DNA from: a virus
Lineage: Duplodnaviria > Caudoviricetes
Virus record (IMG/VR): IMGVR_UViG_3300013121_000034
Location: 65,024-129,023 of that record
Direction: 5' to 3' (one strand)
Length of the DNA: 64,000 nt
Position 1 is the stretch's first letter. Every line of letters begins with the position of its first letter. Both the position numbers and the translations under genes were made by a program. This document shows positions 3,997 through 58,690 of the stretch, piece by piece. The notes under the pieces were generated by a model. The model was not told the origin of the DNA. It made no database searches and saw only the letters and a program-made list of their open reading frames with translations.

Positions 3997-6900
3997 CTAC
4001 AGCACGCCTTTTATTGGCGTCAACTGAGATAGTCGATCACGCGTGTAGCTTATCATAGCGCGGTAAATGACGCGCCACTCTTTCTTATGCAGCTTGCGCT
4101 TGAACGTTAAATCTTCCTCGAATCGATCACGCAAATAATCAAGGCACATGGCCTCGCCGCCCTTCGATACGATCATATCGATGGCGCGGCTCATATCAGC
4201 CTTGGCTAGTGCCTCGCTTTCATAGCGCGACACGATGCTGTTATACCGCTGCGCAATCTTTTGTGCGAAGGCGTTTGAGAATTTGCGATACATGACCGAG
4301 AAATCGCGCGGCGCTATCGCAGCATCGAACGTGGTTATGTTTTTCAACTGGATCGGTGCAGTCGAAATTGGCGTGCCTTGGATAATACCCCACGACTGGC
4401 ACTGCTTCTTTGTGAGCGGGAAATTACCTAGCGTGCGCGTGTCATAGAACTTGCGCAAGATAGGCTTGCCTGTGTCCCAATTCACTGCGCCTGCCGTCAC
4501 TTTGATCGACGCGCCCATTCCCATGAAGCCGAGAGACGTGCGCTGAATAGCGCGGCGCGCTTTTCGAATATCAACACGCGTGCCGTTCTGGCGCGCAATC
4601 AACGCCATGACGTTTTGAATTTCAAGGTCGAGTTGGCGAGGCGTGATGACGCCGACGTATTTGTAAATCAGGAAGCGCCTGAACGCGCCTGATATAAAAG
4701 TGCGCTTGTTCCAGCCGATAGGCGTGCGGAACAGCTTGCCACGTGTGCGCACGGTCAACACGACCATATACGGCGAGCGAATCTTTTCCCCAATCCAAAA
4801 CGCAGTCGGTGTAGACGCTATGGTCATTCGTGCGCGTTCGCCGGAATGACCCGACTTAGCACGCGCACCGGAAATGCGATCACCGTAAATGTGTTTCAGT
4901 TTCGGGAATTTCTTTTTCACAATTGCTAGAAGCTGACGCACTCCCGTCGCGCCTAGCTTATGTTGTGCCGCTCCGAAAATGTTGACCTTGGCGTATTCCT
5001 TAGACCCATCAACAAATTTGATAGCCAACTCAGCTTCTTTTTGTCCGTCGATCAGAATTGAATACATGTGCAACACGTAGCGGCCATCTTGCATATTGCG
5101 GCCACGTTCAATGCCGTTCGACTCCAGCTTGATATTCAAACCAAGCTTGGCTACTGCCATATTCTTTTTCGTGTTCTCGCGAACGAGCGCCGCCGCCTTC
5201 GAGCCTTCAAACGATTTGAAGAATTTCGATTCCTTGATCGCGTCGCCTCTATCGCCCCATTGTTTTATGTCCAGCACGTCGATGTGGTAGCCGTCAGGGA
5301 AATCGTCTTTGATGATTTGCAGCAGCACGTTAGCCGCTCGGCGCGCAATACCGTCCTTCTTAAAATCGACGTTGAAGGAATTGTTGTCCTGATCGAGCGC
5401 CGAGCAGCGAACCCATCCCAAAACATTCGTCGCGTAGAAACGAGCAATCAGCTTGCGCTTGGGATCGCTTTCGGAAAATTCCTCGCCTGTGAACGTCTTG
5501 TAGAAGGGATGAAAGCCGTCATCGTTCTTTAGCGCGGCATACGCAACGCTGGTATGCGTGTTGTCCTCGCCAACCGGCAATTCACGGCCTTCGTGCGTAA
5601 TCCACATGTCCATTGACGTGCGCGTTTTGTATGACGCGATGGCCTCTGTTACACGCGGAAACGTTTTCAAATGCTGGAGTGTTTCGTGCTTGTCCGTAGA
5701 CGAGAAAAAGTGTTCGTCTGTGCGCCCGCTCAAATCGTCTACGAGATAACGTTCGCGTGTTTTATCTGCGGGGCGGAAACGCTGCAACACGCGTGCTGCC
5801 ATCGTTACAGCCGCACGTGTCGGGAAGCTTTTATGCATTGCGAAATCAATTTCGCTTGGCATCATTATGACACGCACCCATCCCAAACGACGATAGGCGT
5901 AACCCATCGTTGCGTCTTTGACAGTGTTCGGCTGCGCCATTTCCATGTCGCGGTAATGATATTCTTTTTTGAACCATGCTTGGAAATCAGCGTCGTCTTT
6001 GAAACGCGTGACGCAATAATCCAAGTGCATAGTGTGTCCAAGGTCGATCAGCTTACCGTTTTCGTCGATCCAGTAACCGCCGATAGAGCCTGCTGTTTCC
6101 TCCAAACCTTTCGATGGCTGTGTGCGCGCTTTTTGAAGCAACTCAACTGCCAAATGGCGCTTGTCGCGCGACAATTTCGCGGCGCGGATATTCGATATGT
6201 CCAGCGGAAGACGCTGCACAACGTCCAAATTCACGAACTCAAGATCGGTGCCAATCTCCGCCATAAGGCGAATGCATGCGTTGACCGCGCGGCCAGATAG
6301 CGCACCATTTAAGAACATGAAAGACAGCGACGCATCGCCATATTCATCATAACGAGCGCGCACCCATCCGTCCTTGATAGCACGCTCCACCGTCAAGCCT
6401 ACACGGCTGATATATGTGCGGTGTGAGTCTGACGCCTTGAGCGTGTGCTTTTTGCCGTCGGGCGCTATCCAGTATTTTTCCTCGGCGTAGGACGCAGCTT
6501 TCGCTTCGTGCTTGGCGACGTTATTTTGCAGCACCGAAAACAGCCGCGATTTCTCATGCGGTTCAAATTTGCCGCCGACGTTACGCAGGATATTCTTTTC
6601 GTGGTAGGTAACGTCGAGATAGGTGTCCTCTTGAGTGTCACGCAGTTGGCGAACAAGTGTGCGATACGCTTTGAGGCTCAAACGATCCTTCGAAATTTCG
6701 ATTGCGTTGCGATGCGTGTTGCGCACGCGGACCCATCCACGATGCAACAGATAATCGACGGTGCTGGAATATTGCTGATCCTCAAATTCTTTTTTGTCCG
6801 CAGGGTGCTTGGCAATCCAATCGGCTGCGAAATCCATATGGTCTTCGTCGATCCAATGGATTTTGCCATCGGCGTCGATGAAGCAGTTGTTATTCGTATC

Positions 6901-9900
6901 CCAAATGGATGCGTCCGACGCAAAAAGTTCAAGCTGACCCTTTGGAGTCGCCTTGCGCCCGCGATAGCGCGCCAGAATTTCCTCGAATACGTTGCCTGCC
7001 GCTTTCAACGCACCGGGAATTTCGCCCTCGCGATGGCCCAACATGAATGCAAGGCGCACTCTTTTTAGCACCTTGAAGCGATTAGCCTTGTTCAGCTTGT
7101 ATTTCTTGGCGAACGGCTCAAGCTTATCGCGGTAGAAACCATCCCACGTATTAAACAACGCCTTGTGCTTTTCGAAATACAGCGGACGGACGATCTGCTC
7201 ATTTTCGAAATCGTGAAAGCCTTCGATGTAACGCAGCGTGATTTCGTCCAGCGACGCATGCACGACTGCACCTTTGATATTGTGCGCTATCTGCTGCATG
7301 GCTTCGCGACGCGTAAACTTTTTCGTAGGCACCGCCGTATCAGCGCCCCACGGATGATTTTTGTCTACAACGGCCACGTAATAGGCGATCGGATTTTCGG
7401 GATCGTCGCGGCGTTGCGACAACGCACGAATGAGTTTCATCGCCGCAGGCTTGGCGATTTCTTTTTGCGCTACGTCGTATGCATTATCTGCGGCCATGCG
7501 AATCCAGCCGAGTTCGCGCATAGCGAACGCGGTATATGGATAGTATTCGCGGCCCTTATCGCTTTTGCGCCACGCCGCAAATTCTTTTTTGTGATCGCGT
7601 AGGATCAATTCGCGTGCGCGATGTTCGTGATCGTATTGCGCCGGATGGCCGACCCAAACGACTGCACCACCATGCAGCAACCAAAACCGCCCGTCATCGT
7701 CATCAATCCATGAATGCGAGACGTTGGCCGTGATTTGTTTTTTAGCCACGTTCTTTCTTAGCACAACGTTCAACTCGTATAGCGAGTTGGCGCGTGCGTA
7801 ATCATGCTCAAAACCTTTTGCGTCCGGTTGTTCGGATATAATTTCTACGACAGCTTTGTCAAAACCGTTGTCCTTGAAAATAGAAGCAAGGGCGCTAGCT
7901 TGTGTCGACGTTAAGCCGCCTTTGGGAATGGAAATGGACAAAGAGTTACGATCAGTTGCAAAATAACGGTTGATAGTGCGTGCGTAACCGTAGGCCGTTT
8001 GCAAGGCTTCGGTCGGATATTCTTTATAGAGAGAAGGTGCGTTCAAGCGTGAACGAATCACAGCACTGGCGAGATACCAATGTTTTTCAAAGTCGACGTT
8101 TTCAATTTTTCCGTTCGGACTGATCCAATAGCCGTAAGGCATTTGGCCTTCCGCTTGGGCGGTTTCCTCGTTCTTTTTGAACTCTGGAATGCCTTTGCGA
8201 TTATACTGTGCGCGCATCAGCTTTTTGCGCTCGTCGCTATTCCGCCATGTGAACTCAAAATGCTTGTCGTCAATGTTGATTTCGGTCGTTTTGAAACCGC
8301 CGCCGCCTGATCGGAACAAACGCTCCAACGTTTCGAGTGCTTTATGCGACGCGCGATTATTCGCCATGTCGATAGTGGCGCGCCTGTGGTAGTCGGGCGA
8401 ATGTGTGTCGACGTCTTCGTTGCCGCTCGCTTCGTCGTGACCGCGCGGCAACGTCAAGCGAATCCAGCCGCGCTTGCGCATCAGAAATGCAGATAATCCG
8501 TCGTGGTCTTTTGCGTCGGCGAACTTTTGGATTTCAGCATCGTTCGGAAATTGCTGGGCGACAGTGTTGACATAGCCTTTCTTGCTAACGATACCAATGT
8601 AATCGCCACTATCAGTAATCCAAGCACCGTAATATCCATCCAAGTCAAATAGCTTCTTTGACGCTTCCCACGACTCGCGCTCGGCTTTATCTTTTGCATC
8701 GAGAATCTTACTCCACTTGACGTTCAAGCCTTGCAGCATTTCCTTAAGCGTCTTGAAACCGTGCTTTTTCATTTCCGCAACCAACGCGTCGATGGTCTTG
8801 CGAATTTGAGAGTTCGGCTCCGAGTTGGCATTATGGATTGCCGCTTCAAGGCTCGCAACGACGTCGGCTGTCAGATGACCGTAAGCAGGATCAGCGCGAC
8901 GCACCCAATCATACCAAACTTTTTTCGCATGCTTATCAAGCTGCGAATATTTATCGACCTTGAACAACTGAATGAGGCCATGAATACGCACGCCGTCATA
9001 ACTCTTGCGGCGATCAGAGCCGCGATAGACGTAAGCGTCGCGAATTTCAGGACGTAGCGCCTTATAGGCGTCGAGCAAATACGACAGCGGCTTGGCGCGC
9101 AATTTGTTTTGCACCAAGAAGCTCTTTTTGTCGGCGTATATGAAAACGGGAATACGTTTGGCTTTGCACAGACGCACAAGCTTAAGCAGCCTTTCGGTTG
9201 CCTTGGGATATGTCTTTTCGTTTATGGATTTTTGCTCAGCTAGGATATGCACGCCATCAATAAGTTCTTTTGCGTTCGCCGGAATCTTCAAGCCTTCCGG
9301 CGTGTTGGACGTAATGCGTTCCTCGGCTTCGTCGTTGAATTGCGTTTTGCCGACGTTGCCACGATCCTGCCAATACGAAACAGGGTAAATCTTGAACCGC
9401 TTCGCGATGGTGCGACGGTTCAAGTTGAACATGACGTAGTAGTGCGCGGAGTTTGCGACGGCAAACGAATTGAGTTTCGAGCGCGTGAGGCTCAAAAAGT
9501 ACGAGTTGGGAACGTTTTGATCGGAGCGCGTGCCGACGATAGGGCGAAATTTGAACTCGCCTTGCTCCAAAATCGTGAGAGCGCGGTCAGGATACGTCGA
9601 GTGATAGAGAATGTAATCGTTTACGCTCGCGGTTTCGACGCGCTCTGTTTCATTGAAGGCTCGTACGCTAGGGTTCGCTACGTTGTTTCGCATCAACGAG
9701 GTCACGAAACTTTTTTGTGACGCGTCGTAAATATGACCCGCCGTATCCATCGGAATATCGACGTGTCCTTCGTCTGTGAAATCTACGATGTACTCGTTGG
9801 CCTCTTGCTTAACAAACCAACGCAAAAAAGTGCTGGCCGCGCGCGGTGCGACGCGTTTAGCGGCGGCTTGAACAACGAGCGACTCACCGTAAGAAATAGC

Positions 9901-10383
9901 AGCCGTACGAATCCAGCCCAATTGCATTATGACATAGCGAAAAGCTACGAGTTCGGGACGATTGTTCTCTTTCGCGCGCGCATCTTTTTCTTCTGTCCTT
10001 TGCGCGAGGTAAGCCTCAAACGCCTTGTCGCCATGCAATTCAGTCAAAGCAACATGGGCGTGCGTGTACCAATTGCGAATTGGAATAACGCGACCGTCAT
10101 GCGTGAACCACATGTCAGTCAAAATGCGGTTATGGAATTTGAACGCGGCAACCGTAGGCCGCTTGGGACGCTTGCGCTCGAAAAAGAGCGGTACAGCGGC
10201 GCGAATAGCTGCAATAATTTCGTCGGCGGTTTTACCAGCCTTCCACGCAGCAATGGTTGCTTCACGGCATTTTTGCGTGACCATTTCGCATTCAAAAACC
10301 TTATCGCTTTTACGAAAGCGAGGTTCAATTTCGCTCGCGTAAAACTCGCGAAAGACCTTGGCAACTTTGTCTTGTGTCAGCAT
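3997..10383 (-). CDS. large modular protein (~2128 aa), putative head-packaged polyprotein with an ADP-ribosyltransferase-like domain and 8 repeats of a W-x-x-x-D-G...H...G-W-x-R domain
   Basis: ATG 10383 follows the upstream stop at 10388 (the track starts at TTG 10434); repeated motifs and Ala-ending linkers are visible in the translation; LYHST...FLSLTRS...DEAEER motif. Confidence 0.75.
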   Translation of the reverse strand: MLTQDKVAKVFREFYASEIEPRFRKSDKVFECEMVTQKCREATIAAWKAGKTADEIIAAIRAAVPLFFERKRPKRPTVAAFKFHNRILTDMWFTHDGRVIPIRNWYTHAHVALTELHGDKAFEAYLAQRTEEKDARAKENNRPELVAFRYVIMQLGWIRTAAISYGESLVVQAAAKRVAPRAASTFLRWFVKQEANEYIVDFTDEGHVDIPMDTAGHIYDASQKSFVTSLMRNNVANPSVRAFNETERVETASVNDYILYHSTYPDRALTILEQGEFKFRPIVGTRSDQNVPNSYFLSLTRSKLNSFAVANSAHYYVMFNLNRRTIAKRFKIYPVSYWQDRGNVGKTQFNDEAEERITSNTPEGLKIPANAKELIDGVHILAEQKSINEKTYPKATERLLKLVRLCKAKRIPVFIYADKKSFLVQNKLRAKPLSYLLDAYKALRPEIRDAYVYRGSDRRKSYDGVRIHGLIQLFKVDKYSQLDKHAKKVWYDWVRRADPAYGHLTADVVASLEAAIHNANSEPNSQIRKTIDALVAEMKKHGFKTLKEMLQGLNVKWSKILDAKDKAERESWEASKKLFDLDGYYGAWITDSGDYIGIVSKKGYVNTVAQQFPNDAEIQKFADAKDHDGLSAFLMRKRGWIRLTLPRGHDEASGNEDVDTHSPDYHRRATIDMANNRASHKALETLERLFRSGGGGFKTTEINIDDKHFEFTWRNSDERKKLMRAQYNRKGIPEFKKNEETAQAEGQMPYGYWISPNGKIENVDFEKHWYLASAVIRSRLNAPSLYKEYPTEALQTAYGYARTINRYFATDRNSLSISIPKGGLTSTQASALASIFKDNGFDKAVVEIISEQPDAKGFEHDYARANSLYELNVVLRKNVAKKQITANVSHSWIDDDDGRFWLLHGGAVVWVGHPAQYDHEHRARELILRDHKKEFAAWRKSDKGREYYPYTAFAMRELGWIRMAADNAYDVAQKEIAKPAAMKLIRALSQRRDDPENPIAYYVAVVDKNHPWGADTAVPTKKFTRREAMQQIAHNIKGAVVHASLDEITLRYIEGFHDFENEQIVRPLYFEKHKALFNTWDGFYRDKLEPFAKKYKLNKANRFKVLKRVRLAFMLGHREGEIPGALKAAGNVFEEILARYRGRKATPKGQLELFASDASIWDTNNNCFIDADGKIHWIDEDHMDFAADWIAKHPADKKEFEDQQYSSTVDYLLHRGWVRVRNTHRNAIEISKDRLSLKAYRTLVRQLRDTQEDTYLDVTYHEKNILRNVGGKFEPHEKSRLFSVLQNNVAKHEAKAASYAEEKYWIAPDGKKHTLKASDSHRTYISRVGLTVERAIKDGWVRARYDEYGDASLSFMFLNGALSGRAVNACIRLMAEIGTDLEFVNLDVVQRLPLDISNIRAAKLSRDKRHLAVELLQKARTQPSKGLEETAGSIGGYWIDENGKLIDLGHTMHLDYCVTRFKDDADFQAWFKKEYHYRDMEMAQPNTVKDATMGYAYRRLGWVRVIMMPSEIDFAMHKSFPTRAAVTMAARVLQRFRPADKTRERYLVDDLSGRTDEHFFSSTDKHETLQHLKTFPRVTEAIASYKTRTSMDMWITHEGRELPVGEDNTHTSVAYAALKNDDGFHPFYKTFTGEEFSESDPKRKLIARFYATNVLGWVRCSALDQDNNSFNVDFKKDGIARRAANVLLQIIKDDFPDGYHIDVLDIKQWGDRGDAIKESKFFKSFEGSKAAALVRENTKKNMAVAKLGLNIKLESNGIERGRNMQDGRYVLHMYSILIDGQKEAELAIKFVDGSKEYAKVNIFGAAQHKLGATGVRQLLAIVKKKFPKLKHIYGDRISGARAKSGHSGERARMTIASTPTAFWIGEKIRSPYMVVLTVRTRGKLFRTPIGWNKRTFISGAFRRFLIYKYVGVITPRQLDLEIQNVMALIARQNGTRVDIRKARRAIQRTSLGFMGMGASIKVTAGAVNWDTGKPILRKFYDTRTLGNFPLTKKQCQSWGIIQGTPISTAPIQLKNITTFDAAIAPRDFSVMYRKFSNAFAQKIAQRYNSIVSRYESEALAKADMSRAIDMIVSKGGEAMCLDYLRDRFEEDLTFKRKLHKKEWRVIYRAMISYTRDRLSQLTPIKGVL

Positions 10384-10387
10384 TGTT

Positions 10388-10708
10388 TCACTTGTATCGC
10401 GGATCGTTGACGCAGTGCTCTGCCAGTATTTCAAAGTATGCTTTGGCGTTTTGAATGTTGGTCATATGACCGCGCCATTGCGCGGTAGCTTCACGCAATT
10501 TACTAGGATCGTGTTGGTAGTCGCGTCCATTGGGCGCGGTCTTTTTAAGCATTTCTAGTGCATCGTCTAATGTTGTCAACGCGTCCATATAATCTTTGGC
10601 TAGAGAACGCGCAGACGATCCGTTTATATGAATTTGCGGTGTAACGACCTTGGATGGGTCGAAATCGTTAGCCGTTACTTTTTGAACGTAGGCTTCAATG
10701 CGGTTCAT
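10388..10708 (-). CDS. hypothetical protein with N-terminal KVTA|N leader (possible internal head protein)
   Basis: 106 aa, tightly packed between PAAR and the large modular gene. Confidence 0.7.
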   Translation of the reverse strand: MNRIEAYVQKVTANDFDPSKVVTPQIHINGSSARSLAKDYMDALTTLDDALEMLKKTAPNGRDYQHDPSKLREATAQWRGHMTNIQNAKAYFEILAEHCVNDPRYK

Positions 10709-10714
10709 TTTTGA

Positions 10715-10966
10715 TTACCCGATATTCACGTTGCCGGAACCAGTTGCGATAACGCTACCGCAATTGCCGATAATGCTATCGCCTTGGCGGGCAGCAGCGT
10801 TGCCGTTGATAAAGACCGTGGTGGAGCCGCCGAAAACAGTGCCGTGACCGCCGTACAAATCAGTTTTACGCAGAGCACCGTTTCCGTTGATGCTTACGTT
10901 CGAAGACGACGTTGTCGGCAAATTGCCGTGCGTACATGGCGAGTTACTTTTTGCAGCGGCTCCCAT
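10715..10966 (-). CDS. PAAR-motif spike tip protein
   Basis: SSNVSING...GSTTVFINGNAAARQGD...CGSVIATGSGNVNIG. Confidence 0.92.
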   Translation of the reverse strand: MGAAAKSNSPCTHGNLPTTSSSNVSINGNGALRKTDLYGGHGTVFGGSTTVFINGNAAARQGDSIIGNCGSVIATGSGNVNIG

Positions 10967-10972
10967 AAACCT

Positions 10973-11305
10973 TTACCTCAGTTGCGCAGCGTTATGGTTG
11001 ACAACCCACAACATCAAACCAAAAAGAATCACGAGAGAAATAGTGAGTTGTAGCGGCGATGCAAATGTCCACAACGCCCATAGAGCGACGACTGTAATCG
11101 CTAGCTTAATAGCCCAACGCACAGGCCCGACAAGTGGGACAGACCATCCGTACCACCAACGCACAAACGGATTTCGTTCGCGACCGCCTCTTTTTATGAC
11201 TTGGTCTGTCAACATACAATCACGAATCGCCAAAAGAAAAATGCACGCGCTAATCAGCGCGAGCAGCGTACCGATGTTTGCACCGTACAAAACGACGTCA
11301 GGCAT
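10973..11305 (-). CDS. small membrane protein (DUF5658-like)
   Basis: About 3 hydrophobic segments; D-x-x-x-T...GGRERNP motif. Confidence 0.55.
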   Translation of the reverse strand: MPDVVLYGANIGTLLALISACIFLLAIRDCMLTDQVIKRGGRERNPFVRWWYGWSVPLVGPVRWAIKLAITVVALWALWTFASPLQLTISLVILFGLMLWVVNHNAAQLR

Positions 11306-11317
11306 TTTTCCCTCCGT

Positions 11318-11605
11318 TTAGTACCAGCGGATTACACCGCCCGGCTCGATTTGATAATGCGAACGGCATGCCAACTGCATATTGCCAATCGACGGCGTCA
11401 AAGAAAAGTTTGGACCCGGATTATGCAACGTCCAGCCATCGCGCCAATGCGGTTCGAGCGCCGTCACTGTTTCGGTGCCGCAGCCGCACGCACACAGATG
11501 TATGCACTGCGCATGTTGAATTGAGTGATAAAAGATGCCCTCTTGAAGCGGACGTGGAATTTCCGATTCCACTGCGCGATATTCGAGTTTGTCGATCCTG
11601 CTCAT
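11318..11605 (-). CDS. DUF6527-like protein
   Basis: HLCACGCG...W...FSLTPSIGN...CRSHY-x-I-x-x-G-x-x-I-x-W; GGAGG Shine-Dalgarno follows for the next gene. Confidence 0.75.
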   Translation of the reverse strand: MSRIDKLEYRAVESEIPRPLQEGIFYHSIQHAQCIHLCACGCGTETVTALEPHWRDGWTLHNPGPNFSLTPSIGNMQLACRSHYQIEPGGVIRWY

Positions 11606-15402: not shown

Positions 15403-18400
15403 TTAAAAGACCTTCCTGATCGGAATTGAGAAATTCACAGTGCATCCATTCCAAGCCGTAACGGCCTGAATAAAGAGCGTTTGCGATGCGGATTTGCTGA
15501 ATATGCGCTTCACGATGTTGGCGTCCGTAATATGGATCAAATCGTTAGCTGCGACCGCTTGCGCCACAACGACTTGCGTGCCGCCGTTCGTCGTGCCGAT
15601 TTTGACGCCGCCTGTCACGGCGGCTGCCGTCGTGTTATCAACAAAGATGTTGCCATAAACGGCGAAACCAGCAGGCACCGACACAGTTGTGTTTGCGTTG
15701 GCGGCTGTCGCCGTGAGCAAATAACTGTCGCCAGAAAGTTCGTCCGTGACGCCACGCTCAAAACGCGGCGCAGCGAAAATGGCATACTGCGCATTATTGA
15801 GCGTCGTCGACCAAACAACTTGGCAACGATAGCGCGCCCATACGGCATCGCTTGGTGCCGTGATGCGCGTGTCGAGGCTGGCCGTAGTATCTGCGCCCGC
15901 CGCGACATTGCGGTAATCGGAACCGATAGTAAAAGTATCCGAAGCCGTTGAGGCGGAAGTCGATTTATCCTGTTTGAGCCAACTGATGATGATGCGGATA
16001 AGACCAGTAAATCCGCTCTTAACGAATGCACGTGCAGCAACGCGAAGCGGCTTGCCCGGCTCAATCCACACATACGAATCAGTTGCCGTTTGACTCGTTT
16101 CGCTATTGCCTTGCGATGTGGTGCCGTTGCCAGTGACGGTTTTTGCGCCGGACGGAACGTTAAGCGTCGTTGTGCAATCGGTCGACGTGTCGAGCGTCCA
16201 GCCGGAACCGAACGTCCAGTAAGTCGAATCCGTATAAAGCGGATCAGCGATGTAGTTGTTGAAATCTTTAATGACATGTTTGCTGGCCGTAATAGCGAGC
16301 GCGGCAATTTGTGTGGCCGTGATCGTGCCGTTTACAAGGTTCGATCCCGTAATGGTCGTCGCTGCGATTTTGCCGCCAGTAATTGTCGTGTTCGCGATTT
16401 CAGTGGCAGTGATCGTGCTGGCCGTAATATTGGCTGCTGTGATCGTCGTATTCGCGATCTTTCCACCCGTGATGGTGGAGTTTGCGATATTGCCTGCAAC
16501 GATGGTCGTTGCCGCAATTTCGGTTGTTGTAATCGTCGCCGCTTGGATTTGCGTCGCCGTAATCGTGTTATTGACCAGCTTACCGCCGGTAATGGTTGTG
16601 TTCGCTATCTGCGTTGCGGTGATCGTCGAACTTACTATGTTGCCTGCGGCAATTGTCGTTGCAGCAATGTCCGATCCGGTAATTGTGCCGTTCGTTATTT
16701 CAGCCGACGTGATCGTTCCAGCGACAATGTTCGCCGGAATCGTCATTGAAATAACCTCGGCATCGCTTACACGTTCAAGAGCGCACCGATTGAAAATAAT
16801 CGTCGCCGCGCCAGCCGTTGAACCGAACGTACTCCAATGCGCCATTGCATATAGCGTTACGCTACGAACGGTAGATGTTGTTACCTGAAAAGTTTTCGCA
16901 AATTGATAACGCCGACCGACGGTGCCTGCGCCGTGTACGGTGCCTGCAATATCAGCATCTGTAGCAAAGTTTATGGACCAAGACTCTTGAACCGTACCCA
17001 AACCAGTCAGACGCCATTGTGTCAAAATACCAGCGGCGGTCAAAGAACCGGCACCCAACGTAATATCGCCAACGATTCTGTACCAGCCCGGATACATAGG
17101 AGCCGCTCCGGCGGTATCGGTCAGGTGTTGCAATATGCCGACGTTGGCTGCGGCTGCGGCTGCTGCGATTTGAGCGGCGTACTTTGAAACGCATCCGGTT
17201 ACGCGCGTCGTATTAGCCGCGCCTGCTGACCAATCTGCCCATCCCGTCGGAATGCCGGATGCGACCAAATTGCCTTGAAAGTTTGCCTCTAGGTTATATG
17301 CGTTGTCGACGCCTTTATAATCGGCGCTTGTCAAAATCGATGTGCTGACCTCGGCGGACGTAATAGTGCCCGCTGCAATATTAGCAGCGGTGATCGTGTT
17401 ATTTGCAATCTTTCCGCCAGTGATGGTGCTATTTGCAATTTCCGTTGCAGTAATCGTAGCAGCGGCAATTTGCGTGGCAGTGACGGTGTTATTCACCATC
17501 TTTGCACCAGTGATCGTCGTATTGGCGATCTGCGTTGCAGTGATGGTGCTTGAAACGATGTTGCCTGCGGCAATTGTAGTTGCTGCTATATTTGATCCCG
17601 TGATAGTGCTGGCGGCGATTTGTGTCGTTGTGATCGTGCCAGAAACGATATTACCTGCTGCGATTGTAGTTGCTGCGATATTCGATCCGGCTATCGTTGC
17701 CGCAGCAATTTGTGTCGTCGTTATGGTCGCGTTCACCAGCTTGCCGCCAGTGATCGTTGTGTTGGCAATGTTGCCCGCCACGATTGTCAAAGAAGCGATT
17801 TCGGTTGTCGTTATGGTAGCGGCGTTGATCTGCGTCGCGGTGACGGTGTTATTCACCATCTTTGCGCCGGTTATGGTGGTATTTGCTATCTGCGTCGCAG
17901 TGATCGTAGACGAGACGATGTTGCCTGCTGCGACGGTCGTATTAGCGATCTTTGCGCCGGTCACGTTGGCGTTCAAGATTTTGATGGTCGTTATAGCGTC
18001 AGAGGCGATTTCTGTCGCAGTGATAGTACCGCCAACGATATTGGATGCCGTAATCGTCGAACCCGAAATTTTTGCGCCGGTAATGGTCGAGTTGATGATG
18101 TTACTAGCCGCAATAGTCGTACCAGCAATGTTTGATCCCGTGATCGTAGCCGACGCTATCGACCCTCCGGTTAGGGTACCGGGGAAAATTCTGTCGTCGT
18201 AAATGGATGCTGGCGCTATTTTTGGACCAACGATAGAGTCGCTACGGATCAACGCCTCATCGAGCATGGGCCTAAAAGAAGGCTTAGTGTAAATGATATA
18301 CTGCGCGTTATTTTGCGTGCTGGACCAGTCGATACGCAAACTGAAACGTCCGTAAACCGCAGTGGACGGTGCTTGGATGATTACGAGAAAAGCGTTCGCC

Positions 18401-21400
18401 GTGCTGGCTCCAGCATAGGCTGTTGTTCGATAGTCGTTGAAACTTGGATCGAATATAGTCGTGGTACTTACTTGCGTGGATTTATCGGCTTTGTACCATA
18501 TAACTTGAGCACCTGCCCGGCCAGTGAAACCGGATTTCAAAAAGTATTCAACGGCAACGCGGAAATAAGCACCGCCGTCTACAGGGAACCAGTTGCTAGA
18601 GGCCCCGATACTTGACGTATTTGCGGCTTGCGACGTTGTGCCGTTACCGACCGGCGTTTTCAAGCCGCGTACTGCGCCCATGCCTGCGGGTGGATCAACC
18701 GTGACCTCGGTACTTGTATCGGTCGCCCATCCTGAACCCAAACTCCAGTAATCAGGAACGTCTGAAAATTCAGGATCGAGAATGTAGTTGTTTCCACCTA
18801 TCGCAACAATTCGCGATGCTGTAATAGCACCAACGGCAAGTTCTGTCGCGGTAATTGATCCTGCTGCAATGTTCGCAGCCGTGATAGTGCCCGCTGCAAT
18901 TTGCGTGGCGGTAATCGTACCGGCTGCAATTTGGCTTGCAGTAATCGTGTTGGCAGCGATCTTTGCCGCTGTAATCGTAGTGGCGGCAATTTCGGTTGCG
19001 GTGATTGTCGATGCCGCAATTTGCGATGCAGTGATCGTGTTCGCCACGATCTTTGCGGCAGTGATCGTCGTTGCAGCGATCTGCGTAGCCGTTATGGTAG
19101 AGGCGGCAATGTTGCCAGCAACAATAGTCGTCGCAGCGATCTGAGTCGTCGTTATCGTTCCTGCGACGATATTTCCCGCCGCGATTGTCGTCGCAGCAAT
19201 TTGCGTTCCGGTTATGGTGCCTGATACGATGTTGCCCGCAACAATGGTTGTTGCGGCAATTTGTGTCGTCGTTATTGTACCGGCAACAATGTTATTGGCA
19301 GCCACGGTTGTGGCTGCGATCTTTGTGCCGGTGATAGTTCCGTTAACAATCAATTCGGCGCTCGTTGCGCGATTTATACGCGGTTGACCCATCAACGCAT
19401 ATTGTGCGTTGTTGAGAGTTGTAGACCAAGCAACTTGCGTATAGTAACGCGCAAAATAGGCGTCACTCGGCGCAACGAATATAGCATCTATGTATTGAAC
19501 GCCATCGCCGCCAGATTTAGCTACTGTACGATAATCCGTACCGTACTGCCAACTGAAAGCAGTTGAGGCTGCCGTAGTACCGTCAGATTTATACCAGTTT
19601 ATAATTACACCGACGATTCCAGTGAAGCCGTTCTTTATAAGGATTTTGGAAGCGGCTCGGTATGATTTACCTGCTTCAACCGGAGAGTATTGACCGACTG
19701 CAATAACGGTCAAATTCGAAGTTGCCTGCGAGGTCGTACCGTTGCCGACAGGCGTTTTTACCGTCCGTACCAGTCCAAGCGTTGTCGTGGTTTCTGCTGT
19801 TGTGTCGTAGGTGCCTGATGTCAAAGTCCAGTATGTAGAATCTGCGAAATCAACGTCAGCCAAAAGATTGGAACTATCGCTGAGAATAATTCGAGACGCG
19901 GAAATCGTATTGACTGCAATTTCGGTCGCTGTGATAGTGCCTGCTGCAATTTGAGAAGCTGTAATTGTATTAGCTGCAATTTGAGCCGCCGTTATTGTAT
20001 TCGCTGCAATCTTTGCGGCGGTTATGGTGGTAGCAGCAATTTGCGTAGCAGTTATGGTAGACGCTGCAATGTTTCCTGCAACGATGGTTGTTGCGGCAAT
20101 TTGTGTCGTCGTTATGGTGCCTGCAACAATGTTTGCGGCGGCAATTGTCGTTGCCGCGATTTGCGTTCCGGTGATTGTTCCGCTTACGATATTGCCAGCG
20201 GTTATGGTGGTCGCTGCAATTTGAGTAGCAGTAATCGTCGCACTTTGAATCTGAGTGGCCGTTATCGTTGCATTGACGATGTTCGCGCCGGTTATGGTCG
20301 TATTCGCAATAAGACCGCCTGTTATTGTCGCGTTTGAAATTTGCGTTCCGGTGATCGTACCATTGACGATGTTCGATGCCGTAATCGTAGTGCCAGCGAT
20401 CTTTCCTCCGGTGATCGTGCTGTTAGCAATTTCCGTTGCAGTAATCGTGCCGCCGGTGATATTTGATGCAGTGATCGTGGCGTTTGCGATTTTGCCGCCC
20501 GTCACCGCGCCGTCTTCAAATGTGATCGTGTCGAGCAAACGGCGAACGCGGACGTCATCGAAATACACATCGGCTGTTGAGGCCGTCCAGTTGGCAACTG
20601 AAAAAGTAACATACTGAACGCCAGCCGGAACCGTGTAACTACCGCTGTAATACGTCCACGATGAAGGAATCGCACTATTAACAGTTACAAGGTCCGTAAA
20701 TGACGTGCGCAAATCAACGCCAGTCAGAGAATTTGATGTTTCGCCGACAAAGTTTGTTGACGGTTTAGACGTCAACTCGTGCATGCGGATATAAAGACCG
20801 TTCGTCGATGCGGCAGAGCCTTTAATCCAAATGCTCCACGCTAGAATCCATCCAGCTTTTACACCGAATGCTCGTGCTCCGTAAAACGTACCATGCGTCG
20901 AGTTGTCGGTGATCTTAAATGACGCAGCACCATTATTCTGCTGCGTTGTGTCACGCGTCAAAACGAGAGACGTTGTCGTCGCGCGTTGAACCGCACGCCA
21001 TCCGGCAATATTCGCTTCGGCATCTGGATTGCGTATTAAGTTTGCGCCGTAATCGGCAATCGTCAATTGATCGACGGTGATGCTATCAGCCGCTATTTCG
21101 CTTGCCGTTATGGTGCCTGCTGCTATATTCGATGCGGTAATGGTGCCAGCGGCGATGCTAGCGCCGGTGATTGTGCCGCCAAGAATATTGGAGTCGGTTA
21201 TGGTGCCGCCCGCAATGTTCGCACCCGTAATAGTCGCGTTCGCGATCTTTCCGCCCGTGATCGTGCTATTCGCAATTTCGCTGGCAGTTATCGTGCTACC
21301 TTGAATGTTGGAAGCGGTGATCGTGGTGCCAGCAATTTTGCCGCCGGTGATGGTCGAGTTCGCGATGTTCGATCCAGTAATCGTGGACGCAGCAATTTCC

Positions 21401-24400
21401 GCAGTCGTTATAGTCGCGCCCAAAATGTTGGACGCCGTAATCGTCGTGCCAGCGATCTTTCCGCCCGTGATCGTCGAGTTTGTTATTTGCGTTGCGGTTA
21501 TTGTGCTATTGGCGATCTGTGAGGCGGTAATAGTTGTGTTCGCGATGTTGCTGGCCGTAATCGTGGTGCCAGCGATATTGCCGCCGGTGATGGTGCTATT
21601 CGCGATCTGCGTTGTCGTTATGGTCGCGTTCGTTATATTGGAGGCTGTGATCGTAGTACCTGCGATCTTTCCGCCCGTAATCGTCGAATTGACGATATGC
21701 GAATTTGTGATCGTAGTGTTTGCCAACTCAGTGCCGGTGATCGTGCCTCCAACAATGTTGGAAGCAGTGATCGTAGTATTCGCGATCTTTCCTCCGGTGA
21801 TCGTCGAGTTTGCTATCTGCGTTGCAGTGATCGTTGAATTGACGATGTTACCCGCCGCGATTGTGGTATTCGCGATCTTTGAGCCGGTAATTGTTGACGC
21901 TGTTATGTTGGCGTCCAAAATGGTTGCCGATGCGATTTCAGCGTTGGTAATTGTGCCGCCGACAATGTTTGATGCTGTAATCGTCGTGTTCGCGATCTTA
22001 CCGCCGGTTATGGTGCTGTTGGCGATGTTTGACGCGGTGATCGTCGTACCGGCAATATTACTGCCCGTGATCGTGCTGTTAGCAATTTGAGTTGTTGTGA
22101 TGGTCGCCGAAACGATATTCGACGCAGCGATTGTTGTGCCCGCAATCTTTGCGCCGGTGATGGTCGACGCCAAAATTTTGGCGTTTGTAATAGCGTCATC
22201 ATCAATCGTAATCGTGTCTAGGACGCGACGTACGCGCACGTCGTCGAAATAAAGATCAGCGGTTGATGCTGTCCAGTTTGCGACAGAGAACGTTACGTAT
22301 TTGATTCCTGCCGGGACAGTGTATGTGCCGCTATAATAGGTCCACGATGACGGAATCGCGCTATTTCCAGTGATAAGATCGGTTGTCGATGTATATGCGT
22401 TATCCACGTCAGTTAGCGCACTCTGACCCAAATACCGCGCAGTTGGTTTAGCATTCTTTTCGATCATGCGGATATATAGGCCGTTCGCCGAAGCTGAACT
22501 GCCGTCAATCCAGATACTCCACGCCAATTTTTCGCCAGCTTTCACCGCAAAGGCACGTGCGCCATAGAAAGAACCGTTTGCTCCGTTGTCAGTTATTTTG
22601 AAGCTAGCCGCGCCGCTATTTTGGTTTGTGGTATCTCGTGACAGTACAAGAGCCGAACCCGAACGATGCGTTTCAGTCCAATCGGCTAGATCAACCTCTG
22701 CATCGGGGTTGCGTATTAAGTTCGAGCTGAAATTCACAAACGTCAGTTTGTCGACGGTTATACTATCGACGGCAATTTCGTTTGCCGTGATCGAGCCAGC
22801 CGAAATATTCGCAGCCGTTATGGTGCCCGCAGCTATTTCAGTTGCGGTGATTGTACCTGCTGCGATATTCGACGCGGTGATCGTGTTGGCTGCAATCTTT
22901 GCTCCGGTAATGGTCGAAGCAGCAATTTGTGTCGCTGTGATCGTGGACGACGCAATGTTGCCTGCAACGATTGTCGTTGCAGCAATTTGCGTTGTCGTTA
23001 TCGTTCCAGATACGATGTTGCCCGCAGCAATCGTCGTTGCGGCGATCTTTGCACCAGTAATTGTGGACGCTGCAATTTCAGTCGCGGTTATAGTTGCTGC
23101 CGCAATCTCGGTAGCAGTTATTGTGTTAGCTTGAATTTGCGTCGCAGTGATTGTTGCGTTGACGATATTCGCGCCAGTAATCGTAGTATTGGCGATCTTT
23201 CCGCCGGTGATGGTGGAGTTTGTTATCTGTGTGGCGGTTATAGTGCTATTCGCAATTTGCGAAGCCGTTATGGTTGTATTCGCAATGTTCGATGCTGTGA
23301 TGGTCGTACCGGCTATATTGCCGCCAGTGATCGTTGAGTTCGCAATTTGCGTTGTTGTAATTGTTGCGTTGACAATATTCGACGCGGTGATCGTCGTACC
23401 GGCGATCTTTCCGCCAGTGATTGTGCTGTTGGCAATTTCCGTCGCAGTAATTGTGCCGCCCGTGATGTTCGACGCGGTAATCGTCGCGCTGGCAATTTTA
23501 CCGCCAGTGACAGCGCCGTCTTCAAAGGTGATCGTATCCAACTGACGGCGAACGCGAACGTCATCGAAATAAAGATCAGCCGTCGAGGCGGTCCAAATGC
23601 CGACACCGAAGGTGATATATTTAACGCTTGCGGGCACTGTATAGGTGCCGCTGTAATATGTCCACGAAGACGGGACGGCACCGTTTGCCGTTGTCAAATC
23701 CGTTGTAGACGTTGCGTTATCGACATTCGGTAGAGAGTTCAGCGTTGAACCAACAAACTTTGTCGTCGGTGCGCTCGTCAATTCGTACATGCGAATGTAA
23801 AGGCCGTTCGTCGACGCAGACGAACCTTTGACCCAAACGCTCCATGACAAAATCCAGCCCGCTTTAACAGCGATAGCACGCGCACCATAAACCGTACCGT
23901 GCGTCGAGTTGTCTGCGATCTTAAACGATGCTTCACCACTGTTTTGCTGCGTTGTGTCGCGTGTCAAAACAAGCGATGTGGTCGTCGCACGTGCAACCGC
24001 ACGCCAACGTGCCAAATTATCCTCTGCATCGGGATTGGATATGAGATTGGAACCAAAGTTCACAATATTGAGTTGGTCGACCGTAATCGAGTCGGCGGCG
24101 ATTTCGCTTGCCGTTATGGTGCCTGCTGCGATATTTGCCGCCGTAATGGTGCCTGCTGCGATGCTAGCACCTGTTATCGTACCGCCCAAAATGTTTGAAT
24201 CAGTAATCGTACTGCCTGCAATATTCGATCCAGTGATCGTTGCGCTGGCGATCTTTCCGCCCGTGATGGTGCTATTCAAGATTTCCGTCGCGGTGATTGT
24301 ACCCGCAACGATATTCGATGCTGTAATCGTGGTCCCAGCGATCTTTCCGCCGGTGATGGTGGAGTTTGTTATTTGAGTCGCCGTGATTGTGCTATTGGCA

Positions 24401-55779: not shown

Positions 55780-56598
55780 CTAGTGACAGGCTCCTCCTGA
55801 ATTTCCGTTGTAGCCTAGCTTAACCGCTTCGTATTTTTTGATGTAACGTCGTTCCAGATTAGCCAACTTACTAATAGAGTTGGCTTTGGCTATAGCGTGT
55901 ATGGAAAAGTTTTCACTCCCCAATTGGCGTATAGCCTTGCTTAGTTTCGTCCTAGAATTATTTCGCGCAGCATGTAAATGCAGGCTAAACCGTTGTTTGA
56001 GTTTTTGTGTCGTCAAACCAACGTAAACTTTATTATTGATAGAGTTTGTTATTTTGTAAACGACTCCTTGCCTATTTTTAGGCAAACGGCGTTTCGAAAG
56101 TTCTAAGGCTTCTTCGATGGGCCATCCACGCCCGATTCTGTTCGTGACCGTAAGCGGCTCTAATCCGTAGAAACGTGCAGCGGCACTTATAGATGGAAAT
56201 GTTTTGTCTTTGACACGAACTTTTCCAGGAACAGACTCACGTAGCAGCGCGGGTAGCAGAGGATCAATTCCTCTACGACACCTACTAGCAAACAAATGTC
56301 TGTCTATGCCGTAATGATCCGCAGCCTCGTTCCATGATAGAAAAAGAACGCCTTCTAACACTATGCGTTTGGCACCGGCCTTGTTTGCATTGTTCTTGCG
56401 TAGCTCCGCATTATGCACGCGCCTAGACTTCAATACAACTTTATCGTTATCTTTTCCATATTTATGGACTCTATCGACGAACGTTGAATAAGGTATGTCG
56501 AAATGCTGAGCAGCCTCAGTCATGCTTTCAAAATTTTTGCCTTTTAGGGTTAGCATGTCGTTACGGTTCGTTACTGGACCGGCACCTTTTCGTCCCAC
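55780..56598 (-). mobile_element. free-standing GIY-YIG homing endonuclease with three N-terminal HTH-like repeats
   Basis: GVVYKITNSINNKVYVGLT...R...H...LER...GYN; repeated F-x-S-x-x-x-AA-x-x-Y/F; visibly AT-richer than the flanks. Confidence 0.88.
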
Positions 56599-58523: not shown

Positions 58524-58572
58524 GGAGGGCGTCCGTGTGAAATTGGGAGGGGTATAGCTGCGTGCCTGATAT

Positions 58573-58581
58573 AAATTAGGC
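58573..58581 (-). promoter_or_regulatory. putative late promoter GCCTAATTT (protease/head operon)
   Basis: Copy of the 9-mer ~50 nt upstream of the protease ATG. Confidence 0.55.
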
Positions 58582-58690
58582 AGTTCCCAATTACGGAGCG
58601 CGCAAAAAGAAACGGAGCCGCCTTTCGACGACCCCGGCCAATTCAATTGACGTTTGCTGGATTAATTGGAGACGATTAGCGTTCCAATTA

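What the first reader, a model, noticed from the sequence alone, without database searches (positions are those of the whole stretch)
5150..10140. Eight divergent copies of a W-x-x-x-D-G / H / G-W-x-R domain I cannot name
Seen: WFTHDG..HAH..LGWIR; WITDSG..RGWIR; WISPNG..H..YGYAR; WLLHGG..HEH..LGWIR; FIDADG..H..RGWVR; WIAPDG..H..DGWVR; WIDENG..H..LGWVR; WITHEG..H..LGWVR. Only the motif residues are conserved. Inference: conserved His/Arg/Trp suggest a nucleotide- or nucleic-acid-binding pocket; a diversified paralogue array fits an arms race, e.g. sponges or degraders of immune signalling nucleotides, or DNA-protecting proteins.
Basis: partly seen in the sequence, partly recalled or inferred. 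Interest (0 to 1): 0.75.

Follow-up and report, generated by a model that had tools for sequence, protein, structure and literature searches.

The report
Eight-copy unknown domain, phage cargo protein
One giant late gene of an uncultured jumbo phage strings together eight very diverged copies of a small protein domain that matches no described family or solved fold, next to an ADP-ribosyltransferase-like domain, so it is probably a multi-tool protein delivered into the host with the DNA, but what the repeated domain does is still unknown.

Summary
All eight motif pairs lie in one ORF (3997-10383, minus strand, 2128 aa). They mark eight homologous domains of about 130-155 aa. Leave-one-out HMM E-values are 1e-18 to 3e-3, and the copies are 14-31% identical to each other.

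The domain is a real but rare family: 215 of 1.84 billion cluster representatives match. Across 460 copies the signature is W 94%, G 95%, H 93%, G 95%, W 85% and R 92%. It occurs singly or as 2-9 copies per protein. It matches no Pfam or PHROG family above threshold, no PDB sequence and no solved fold (best Z 4.9).

Relatives carry 2H/Acb1-type phosphoesterase, ART-PolyVal, GNAT, NUDIX and HD domains, so these are phage polyvalent proteins (Iyer et al. 2017). This protein also has a DarT/Tpt1-like ART fold (Z 10.4). It closes the late structural and lysis operon of a Lu11/PaBG-like jumbo myophage, two genes after a PAAR gene. An ortholog differs by whole cassettes.

My reading is a virion-delivered cargo protein whose W-domains are autonomous ligand- or nucleic-acid-binding effectors. 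Neither packaging nor function is shown.

The scan has noted polyvalent polyproteins on other DNA. One look-up with a stand-alone relative (P0098) found no look-alike stretch.

The parts
3997..10383 (-). Gene for the 2128-aa polyvalent protein. The ORF is open up to a TTG at 10434; the likely start is the ATG at 10383.
   Evidence: The public gene call of 2128 aa (P0167) and the N-terminus of ortholog P0169 both begin at this ATG.
9661..10134 (-). W-domain copy 1 (aa 101-258)
   Evidence: (leave-one-out E 1e-13)
9103..9627 (-). ART-fold domain (aa 270-444), closest to DarT and Tpt1/KptA. Within the modelled stretch, H17, F52, S54, R57, E108, E110 and E111 are invariant among six homologs.
   Evidence: Alignment A5; AF2 model pLDDT 74.7; Foldseek top hits are all ARTs; VIA Z 10.4 for Tpt1 and 10.2 for DarT
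8212..8646 (-). W-domain copy 2 (aa 597-741); His replaced by Tyr
   Evidence: (E 2.6e-3)
7732..8151 (-). W-domain copy 3 (aa 762-901); GYAR in place of GW[IV]R
   Evidence: (E 2e-4)
7252..7707 (-). W-domain copy 4 (aa 910-1061)
   Evidence: (E 1.8e-9)
6481..6906 (-). W-domain copy 5 (aa 1177-1318); Phe in place of the first Trp
   Evidence: (E 1.1e-9)
6112..6495 (-). W-domain copy 6 (aa 1314-1441); shortest helical insert
   Evidence: (E 5.8e-6)
5626..6096 (-). W-domain copy 7 (aa 1447-1603)
   Evidence: (E 1.4e-9)
5161..5628 (-). W-domain copy 8 (aa 1603-1758); this is the copy that was modelled
   Evidence: (E 1.1e-18)
4813..5160 (-). Unassigned cassette (aa 1759-1874). In ortholog P0169 another W-domain sits at this position.
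   Evidence: (22% identity over this segment), (only P0064 shares it)
4000..4812 (-). Conserved C-terminal domain (aa 1875-2145), shared with W-domain proteins P0003, P0014 and P0031; function unknown.
   Evidence: E 1e-32 to 5e-24. The Atlas gave only a weak lead to a phage minor-capsid (MuF-like) cluster, score 0.88.
10388..10708 (-). 106-aa gene directly upstream; no family
10715..10966 (-). PAAR-motif protein, two genes upstream
   Evidence: Pfam PAAR_motif E 2.1e-9; phrog_281 E 3.6e-14

Best explanation
The ORF encodes a late-expressed polyvalent cargo protein of a Lu11/PaBG-like jumbo myophage.

I infer three steps. First, the protein is packed into the virion. Second, it is probably cut by the phage's head-maturation protease at the short x-[T/I/A]-Ala|small-residue junctions that precede the modules. 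Third, the pieces enter the next host with the DNA. The delivered set would be a DarT/Tpt1-like ADP-ribosyltransferase-fold domain, a few unassigned cassettes and eight different W-domain proteins of about 15-18 kDa.

The W-domain is an autonomous alpha/beta unit (hairpin, three helices, then two strand-strand-helix units) that is not in Pfam, PHROGs or the PDB. I think it most likely binds a nucleotide-derived small molecule or a nucleic-acid end, using the nearly invariant Trp, His, Trp and Arg. It would then act as a binder or sequestering unit alongside the nucleotide- and ADP-ribose-processing enzymes that accompany it in relatives.

Shown here: homology of the eight copies, family-wide conservation, a confident fold model, partner domains in relatives, the ART fold, the gene's place in the late operon, and cassette exchange with an ortholog.

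Inferred only: packaging, cleavage, injection and ligand binding.

My odds: polyvalent cargo protein about 0.75; packaged and processed about 0.5; W-domain is a ligand or nucleic-acid binder about 0.35.
For: Family and conservation:
- 215 representatives match at E <= 1e-3, and 8 at E <= 1e-30.
- Across 460 copies the signature is W 94%, G 95%, H 93%, G 95%, W 85%, R 92% (+K 5%), while other positions drift.

Autonomy of the domain:
- There are 29 stand-alone proteins of 230 aa or less.
- 31 of 107 longer relatives are at least 75% W-domain.
- 108 of the 150 best relatives have 2-9 copies.

Cassette behaviour:
- In ortholog P0169 a W-domain replaces an unrelated cassette, a ninth copy is inserted after aa 262, and per-module identity runs from 100% down to 50%.

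Partner domains in 104 relatives:
- 2_5_RNA_ligase2 in 10, Acb1 in 5, 2H-SAK in 1, ART-PolyVal in 6, GNAT in 4-5, plus NUDIX, HD_4, LigD_N, LMWPc, ParB_N and Nuc_deoxyri_tr2.
- HxTx pairs 74-80 residues apart occur in 11 relatives.
- These are the effector types of polyvalent proteins (PMC5512222).

ART fold in this protein:
- VIA Z 10.4 (2.8 A over 110 residues, Tpt1) and Z 10.2 (DarT).

Gene context:
- The gene is last in a same-strand run of portal, head protease, major head protein, sheath, tube, a 1598-aa ORF without a family match (probably the tape measure, by position), baseplate, endolysin, spanins and PAAR.
- In a complete 192-kb relative, the W-domain protein sits among giant ORFs just upstream of terminase and portal.

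Junction motif:
- 6 of 8 copies have [TIVA]-A-[SGNQA] 3-18 residues upstream of the Trp (random-position p about 0.001).
Against: - There is no direct evidence of virion packaging, cleavage or injection.
- The junction motif is loose: 26 matches in the protein, and the enrichment is moderate (p about 0.001).
- No known capsid-targeting or MuF domain was detected in this protein. Only a weak Atlas lead exists.
- Conserved Trp and Gly could simply be core and turn residues.
- The spatial clustering of W, H, W and R could not be checked, because coordinates are not returned.
- The copies have unremarkable pI values of 6.3-9.3, which gives no sign of a DNA-binding or DNA-mimic character.
- Copies 2 and 3 lack the His or the second Trp.
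- This protein itself has no 2H, NUDIX or HD domain.
Confidence: 0.4

Rival explanations
1. The W-domain is a protein-binding scaffold. Each diverged copy would inhibit or decoy a different host defence protein, as an array of anti-defence binders. The conserved residues would keep the fold, and the variable surface would give specificity.
For: The eight copies are only 14-31% identical to the reference copy. Each copy is at least as close to copies in other phages' proteins as to its sisters, so the array is old and diversified. Copies are gained and swapped between orthologs. Stand-alone forms exist. The proteins that carry them are counter-defence proteins.
Against: The best conserved positions include polar His (93%) and Arg (92%), not only core hydrophobic residues. 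That is unusual for a pure scaffold.
Confidence: 0.25
2. The W-domain is a structural or packaging unit. It would be an internal-head (inner-body or scaffold-like) filler, or a spacer that lets a very long cargo protein be packed and threaded through the tail, with no activity of its own in the host.
For: The domain is repeated many times per protein and lies between enzymatic cassettes. The gene sits among virion genes. No enzyme-like fold match was found. Jumbo phages are known to have paralogous internal head proteins (my background knowledge, not checked here).
Against: Small stand-alone forms and proteins made almost only of W-domains exist. A W-domain occupies the same slot as a non-W cassette in the ortholog, so it behaves as cargo rather than as a linker. 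The family is rare: 215 representatives in 1.84 billion, and none in seven cultured phages that were searched. That fits poorly with an essential structural part. His and Arg are nearly invariant.
Confidence: 0.2
3. The W-domain is a small enzyme that uses His and Arg, for example a phosphoesterase, a nuclease or a hydrolase of nucleotide signals or ADP-ribose adducts.
For: His and Arg are nearly invariant on an otherwise free-drifting sequence. Iyer et al. read such patterns in several LPD domains as possibly enzymatic (PMC5512222). The domain co-occurs with nucleotide-processing enzymes.
Against: No acidic or second catalytic residue is conserved above 45%. Copy 2 has Tyr at the His position. 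Eight or more copies per protein is uncommon for enzymes, although ART reaches 12 copies in one protein. No resemblance to a known catalytic fold was found.
Confidence: 0.15

Closest known systems
Polyvalent proteins of phages and conjugative elements (Iyer, Burroughs, Anand, de Souza, Aravind 2017; PMC5512222)
   Same: It is a giant multi-domain phage protein in a virion-gene neighbourhood. It has an ART-fold domain. Relatives carry ART-PolyVal, 2H, GNAT, ParB and other typical effector domains. Its cassettes are modular and swappable, and several domains are of unknown function, like that paper's 'LPD' domains.
   Different: Eight of about fourteen segments are one repeated domain that matches none of the Pfam LPD or other models. 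No MuF, portal, metallopeptidase or vRNAP hub domain was detected in this protein.
T4 internal proteins and Alt (capsid-targeted, protease-processed, injected proteins); phage P1 Dar proteins
   Same: The proposed logic is the same: small proteins plus an ADP-ribosyltransferase carried in the head and delivered with the DNA. A head-maturation protease gene is present in the same operon. What I say about T4 and P1 rests on my background knowledge and on PMC5512222.
   Different: Here the putative cargo units are fused in one polypeptide. There is no sequence similarity to IPI-III, Alt or the Dar proteins. Packaging and cleavage are unproven.
phrog_1615 and Pfam DUF4859 (both of unknown function)
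   Same: Short, weak matches cover the stretch just before and through the Trp hairpin of single copies: phrog_1615 at E 4e-4 on aa 751-786, and DUF4859 at E 0.0037 on aa 1405-1468. phrog_1615 also matches at E 9.4e-10 in the relative P0172.
   Different: Only about 36-65 residues of one copy match. DUF4859 scores below its curated cut-off (17.6 against 22.6 bits). None of 26 single domains hits either family.
Phage nucleotide-signal sponges and degraders (Tad1, Tad2, Acb2; Acb1 and 2H phosphoesterases)
   Same: They are small phage domains of about 100-150 aa in a counter-defence setting. In relatives the W-domain shares polypeptides with Acb1/2H-type domains. The minimal form, P0078, is one 2H-SAK domain plus one W-domain.
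   Different: There is no sequence or fold similarity to any of them. The W-domain has no HxT/S motifs. Ligand binding is untested.
Gelsolin / ADF-H alpha-beta sandwich (best structural neighbours)
   Same: An alpha/beta sandwich of similar size. The best VIA match is villin V4-V6, Z 4.9, 3.3 A over 91 residues.
   Different: The Z-score is below the level the tool says is typical for unrelated models (best Z 7-8). Identity is 4%. Foldseek finds nothing at E <= 0.001. I treat this as no match.

Membership tests
Phage polyvalent proteins (Iyer et al. 2017) | Large single polypeptide of a phage or conjugative element that combines two or more distinct globular, effector-type domains | tested here: met
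   2128 aa holding eight W-domains, an ART-fold domain, at least three other conserved segments and a C-terminal domain. The record is a virus record with portal, major head protein, sheath and other virion genes.
Phage polyvalent proteins (Iyer et al. 2017) | Contains domains of the known polyvalent repertoire (ART, 2H, MuF, metallopeptidase, methylase-helicase and others) | tested here: inconclusive
   Relatives that share the W-domain carry ART-PolyVal, 2H/Acb1, GNAT and ParB_N. This protein has an ART fold by structure (Z 10.4) but no Pfam ART-PolyVal or other repertoire hit by sequence.
Phage polyvalent proteins (Iyer et al. 2017) | Delivered with the genome (virion-packaged) and acting early in infection | not testable with these tools
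   Only gene position supports it: the end of the late structural and lysis operon, and next to terminase and portal in the relative L007.
Pfam LPD families and other Pfam-A domains | Sequence match of the repeated domain above the gathering threshold | tested here: not met
   The whole protein has no family above its cut-off. For 26 single domains scanned at E <= 1, no family is hit by more than one member.
Pfam DUF4859 (PF16151) | Score at or above the 22.6-bit cut-off over the 120-position model | tested here: not met
   17.6 bits, E 0.0037, on aa 1405-1468 only; 14.6 bits in the six-frame search.
phrog_1615 | Significant match over most of the 111-position profile | tested here: inconclusive
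   E 4e-4, with profile positions 16-51 aligned to aa 751-786 only. A stronger but equally partial hit occurs in the relative P0172 (E 9.4e-10). The single domains do not hit it.
ADP-ribosyltransferase superfamily, DarT/Tpt1-like (for the aa 270-444 domain, not the W-domain) | ART fold with a conserved His on strand 1, an aromatic-x-Ser/Thr strand and a catalytic Glu | tested here: met
   All top Foldseek hits are ARTs (DarT prob 1.00, E 1.2e-3). VIA gives Z 10.4 for Tpt1, 10.2 for M. tuberculosis DarT and 9.3 for Thermus DarT. H17, F52, S54, R57, E108, E110 and E111 are invariant in six homologs. Catalysis was not tested.
2H phosphoesterase / Acb1 (as a reading of the W-domain) | Two HxT/S motifs on a 2H fold | tested here: not met
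   No HxT/S pair is found in this protein. The W-domains give no Pfam 2H or Acb1 hit. The fold model differs.
Nucleotide sponges (Tad1, Tad2/DUF2829, Acb2) | Sequence or fold membership; oligomer with a ligand pocket | tested here: inconclusive
   No Pfam hit and no PDB fold match.

The most novel reading that the evidence does not exclude
The W-domain is a new fold family of injected binders for nucleotide-derived immune signals or ADP-ribose adducts. Phages would deliver it as ready-made tandem arrays of up to nine or ten units per polypeptide, cut apart in the capsid, so that signal sequestration begins at the moment of DNA entry, before any phage gene is expressed.
Probability: 0.15. Interest if true: 0.85.

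Novelty: new variant of a known kind. Interest (0 to 1): 0.55.

Why it matters
Polyvalent proteins are thought to be the tool kits that phages bring into the cell with their DNA, and many of their domains are still unnamed. This family is rare and strongly signed (Trp, Gly, His, Gly-Trp-x-Arg). It is predicted with confidence to fold like nothing solved. It can fill most of a 2000-residue protein, and it keeps company with Acb1-type phosphoesterases and ADP-ribosyltransferases.

If it binds or processes an immune signalling molecule or a nucleic-acid end, it would be a new class of counter-defence domain. It would also be an example of defence neutralisation that is pre-loaded in the virion. 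If it is only a packing unit, it would still explain how such giant cargo proteins are built.

Either way it gives a clean target of about 140 aa for expression, ligand screening and crystallography.

Tried and rejected
Searches for a known family or fold of the W-domain:
- Pfam and PHROGs on the whole protein gave nothing above threshold. The same was true for 26 single domains.
- PDB sequence searches with the protein and with the domain profile gave only chance-level rows.
- Foldseek against the PDB gave no match at E <= 0.001; the weak rows were mostly GNATs at prob <= 0.10.
- VIA-align against 48,161 chains gave a best Z of 4.9 (gelsolin/villin), below the tool's noise level.
- BFVD gave only weak hits to uncharacterised phage proteins: best E 2.1e-3 at TM 0.49, and hits in Shigella phage pSb-1 and Agrobacterium phage Atu_ph07. 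A profile search of those two genomes found no W-domain.
- The ESM Atlas gave only unnamed clusters.

Searches for relatives and their context:
- megablast of the gene against phages found nothing.
- tblastn of the protein against phages found only the ART-like region, in jumbo phages.
- The W-domain profile found nothing in Salmonella phage Sen-NF, Dickeya phage JA11, Salicola phage SCTP-2, Dolichospermum phage Dfl-JY45 or Alishewanella phage Slicko01. The positive control on the own genome found all eight copies.
- The search for related loci failed for A3 (no conserved stretch), P0001, P0003 in viral and genome contigs, and P0076 and P0098 in metagenome contigs. The context of stand-alone domains therefore stays unknown.
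- A literature search for GWIR or GWVR motifs found nothing relevant.

Readings considered and dropped:
- DNA mimic or basic DNA-binding internal protein: the copies have pI 6.3-9.3.
- Recent tandem duplication: each copy is as close to copies in other phages as to its sisters.
- GNAT identity of the aa 1759-1874 cassette: it has a Q-x-x-G-x-G/A-like motif by eye, but there is no Pfam support in it or in its only homolog, P0064.

Full report
**1. What is there**

The stretch 5150-10140 lies inside one minus-strand ORF. It is listed as 3997-10434 (2145 codons from a TTG). The public gene call (P0167, 2128 aa) and the ortholog P0169 both start at the ATG at 10383, four bases after the stop of the upstream gene.

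They alternate strictly and are 34-64 residues apart.

Aligned as units of about 130-155 aa, the copies also share downstream elements: a strand after GW[IV]R, a helix with conserved Ala/Leu, two more strands and a final helix.

Leave-one-out profiles recover each copy at E = 1e-18 to 2.6e-3 for a database of 1000 sequences. Identity to the reference copy is 14-31%, and only Gly, Gly and Arg are invariant among the eight.

The G-[WY]-[IVA]-R motif occurs 8 times in this ORF and 7 times in all other six-frame ORFs of the 129-kb record. A domain profile finds exactly these eight places in the record.

**2. The domain family**

A profile of the eight copies was searched against 1.84 billion cluster representatives. 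It found 215 proteins at E <= 1e-3, 51 at E <= 1e-10 and 8 at E <= 1e-30.

Among the 150 best hits:
- 42 have one copy and 108 have 2-9 copies.
- 29 are stand-alone proteins of 230 aa or less.
- 31 of the 107 proteins of at least 300 aa are at least 75% W-domain.

Over 460 copies the signature is G-x-W-I-x-P-x-G, then V, then H, then A, then G-W-[IV]-R-V. Frequencies are W 94%, G 95%, H 93%, G 95%, W 85% and R 92% (plus K 5%). No other position exceeds 70%.

Each copy of this protein is as similar to copies in other phages' proteins (25-38%) as to its own sisters. The array is therefore old or was assembled by shuffling, not by recent duplication.

**3. Fold**

AlphaFold2 on copy 8, using the eight-copy alignment, gave pLDDT 83.5 and pTM 0.82. 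The order of elements is a strand hairpin (with Trp and Gly), three helices (His at the start of the first), strand (GW[IV]R), strand, helix, strand, strand, helix.

- Foldseek found no PDB match at E <= 0.001.
- An exhaustive VIA-align run over 48,161 representative chains gave a best Z of 4.9 (villin/gelsolin, 3.3 A over 91 residues, 4% identity). That is below what the tool reports as typical for unrelated models.
- BFVD gave only weak matches to uncharacterised phage proteins.
- Pfam, PHROGs and PDB sequence profiles gave no family for single domains.
- phrog_1615 and DUF4859 gave short, sub-threshold matches around the Trp hairpin of single copies.
- The ESM Atlas returned only unnamed clusters.

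I could not check whether the four conserved side chains meet in space, because coordinates are not returned.

**4. What kind of protein carries it**

Pfam scans of 104 relatives gave these counts:
- 2_5_RNA_ligase2 in 10
- Acb1 (anti-CBASS) in 5
- 2H-SAK in 1
- ART-PolyVal in 6
- GNAT in 4-5
- single cases of NUDIX, HD_4, LigD 3'-phosphoesterase, LMW phosphatase, ParB_N, a nucleoside deoxyribosyltransferase-like domain and a HAD-like hydrolase (Hydrolase_3)

Eleven relatives have HxTx pairs 74-80 residues apart. The smallest mixed form, P0078 (386 aa), is one 2H-SAK domain plus one W-domain.

This is the repertoire of phage polyvalent proteins described by Iyer et al. 2017. They proposed delivery with the genome, release of units by proteolysis, and a role of 2H domains in degrading nucleotide signals (PMC5512222).

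In this protein the segment aa 259-596 is shared with P0003, P0014, P0031 and P0072, and with stand-alone hypothetical proteins of jumbo phages (Salicola SCTP-2, Lu11, Dickeya JA11, Sen-NF, Alishewanella, Vibrio). Its model (pLDDT 74.7) matches DarT and Tpt1/KptA:
- Foldseek prob 1.00, E 1.2e-3.
- VIA Z 10.4 (2.8 A over 110 residues) for Tpt1, Z 10.2 for M. tuberculosis DarT and Z 9.3 for Thermus DarT.
- Every strong row is an ART.
- His, F-x-S-x-x-R and E-x-E-E are invariant in six homologs.

The C-terminal 270 aa are conserved in P0003, P0014 and P0031 but remain unassigned. The Atlas gave only a weak lead to a minor-capsid (MuF-like) cluster.

**5. Genome setting**

The window is the second half of a 129-kb IMG/VR record that CheckV rates 48% complete. 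The major head protein is about 35% identical to those of jumbo myophages Lu11, PaBG, Dickeya JA11-like phages and many Erwinia phages.

On the minus strand the window carries, in order:
- portal (58691-62170)
- a 691-aa protein with a head-maturation protease domain
- a virion protein
- major head protein
- sheath and tube
- a 1598-aa ORF without a family match (probably the tape measure, by position)
- LysM, VgrG-like and gp25-like baseplate proteins
- a 6032-aa ORF
- endolysin and spanins
- small genes, including DUF6527 and DUF5658
- a PAAR protein
- a 106-aa protein
- the gene studied here, last in the run

In a complete 192-kb relative (IMGVR_UViG_3300028666_000001), a protein with six W-domains lies among giant ORFs directly upstream of terminase and a portal of the same PHROG. 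A neighbouring 1028-aa protein has one more copy.

**6. Modularity**

The ortholog P0169 (2454 aa, from a 207-kb contig) is identical in the N-terminus and in copy 1. Identity then falls to 95-99% in copies 2, 3 and 5, 76% in copy 8, 70% in copy 4, 64% in copy 6 and 50% in copy 7.

P0169 also has:
- a ninth W-domain inserted after aa 262
- a 173-aa unrelated cassette after aa 901
- another W-domain where this protein has the aa 1759-1874 cassette

W-domains therefore behave as exchangeable cargo cassettes, equivalent to non-W cassettes.

Six of the eight copies are preceded, 3-18 residues before the Trp, by [TIVA]-Ala-[SGNQA] (random-position p about 0.001). Similar sites open the ART domain and the C-terminal domain.

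Other first-stage notes on this genome proposed Ala-specific protease sites. My test finds the enrichment real but moderate, and the motif loose (26 matches in the protein).

**7. Interpretation**

The best-supported reading is a virion-delivered polyvalent protein in which the W-domain is an autonomous effector unit.

The conservation pattern is two aromatic and two polar, phosphate-friendly residues held at 85-94% while the rest drifts. The partner domains process nucleotides, ADP-ribose or RNA ends. Both observations point to a ligand or nucleic-acid site, but this is inference.

Rival readings are:
- a diversified protein-binding inhibitor scaffold
- a packing or structural unit
- a small His/Arg enzyme

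None is excluded. The pI values of the copies (6.3-9.3) argue against a DNA mimic or a strongly basic DNA binder.

**8. Limits**

- No cultured phage with the domain was found: seven genomes were searched with the profile.
- The neighbourhoods of stand-alone members could not be fetched.
- Self-association could not be tested.
- The scan's earlier notes hold several polyvalent polyproteins with junction peptides on other genomes. One look-up with a stand-alone relative (P0098) found no look-alike stretch.

Noticed in passing
window 15403-33501 (-): A single 6032-codon ORF lies between the baseplate genes and the endolysin. It contains no W-domain. It was not analysed further; it could be a giant fibre, an adhesin or a second cargo protein.
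   Followed up: no
window 9103-9627 (-), aa 270-444 of the same protein: An ART-fold domain closest to DarT and Tpt1/KptA (Z 10.4 and 10.2), with invariant His and an E-x-E-E loop. Homologs are stand-alone genes in Lu11, Dickeya JA11, Salicola SCTP-2, Sen-NF and other jumbo phages, all annotated as hypothetical.
   Followed up: yes
window 10715-10966 (-) and 10388-10708 (-): A PAAR-motif gene sits apart from the baseplate cluster, after the lysis genes. It is followed by a 106-aa gene with no family and then the polyvalent protein gene. In type VI secretion loci, genes next to PAAR genes are often effectors (my background knowledge). A link between the tail tip and this cargo was not tested.
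   Followed up: no
junctions in window 3997-10383 (-): The motif x-[T/I/A]-Ala followed by Ser, Gly, Asn or Gln recurs just upstream of W-domains, of the ART domain and of the C-terminal domain. Similar strings occur near the N-termini of the 106-aa protein, a 299-aa head-region protein, the portal and the major head protein. It is a possible head-protease site. The enrichment is moderate (p about 0.001).
   Followed up: partly
window 56571-58646 (-) and 58691-62170 (-): The head-maturation protease domain is the C-terminal part of a 691-aa protein, and the portal protein is 1159 aa long. Both extra regions give weak hits to the same PHROG (phrog_30356, annotated as helicase). The extensions may be further fused cargo.
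   Followed up: no
window 11318-11605 (-) and 10973-11305 (-): A DUF6527 protein (E 1.1e-16) and a DUF5658 membrane protein (E 4.9e-8) lie between the spanins and the PAAR gene. Another first-stage note links DUF6527 to ubiquitin-like defence systems. I did not examine this.
   Followed up: no
L007 (IMGVR_UViG_3300028666_000001, 54576-83860): A complete 192-kb relative has a run of giant ORFs (870, 1186, 1028, 2093, 550 and 1295 aa) upstream of terminase and portal. The 2093-aa ORF combines six W-domains with regions that hit a phosphoheptose-isomerase PHROG and an RNA-ligase PHROG.
   Followed up: partly
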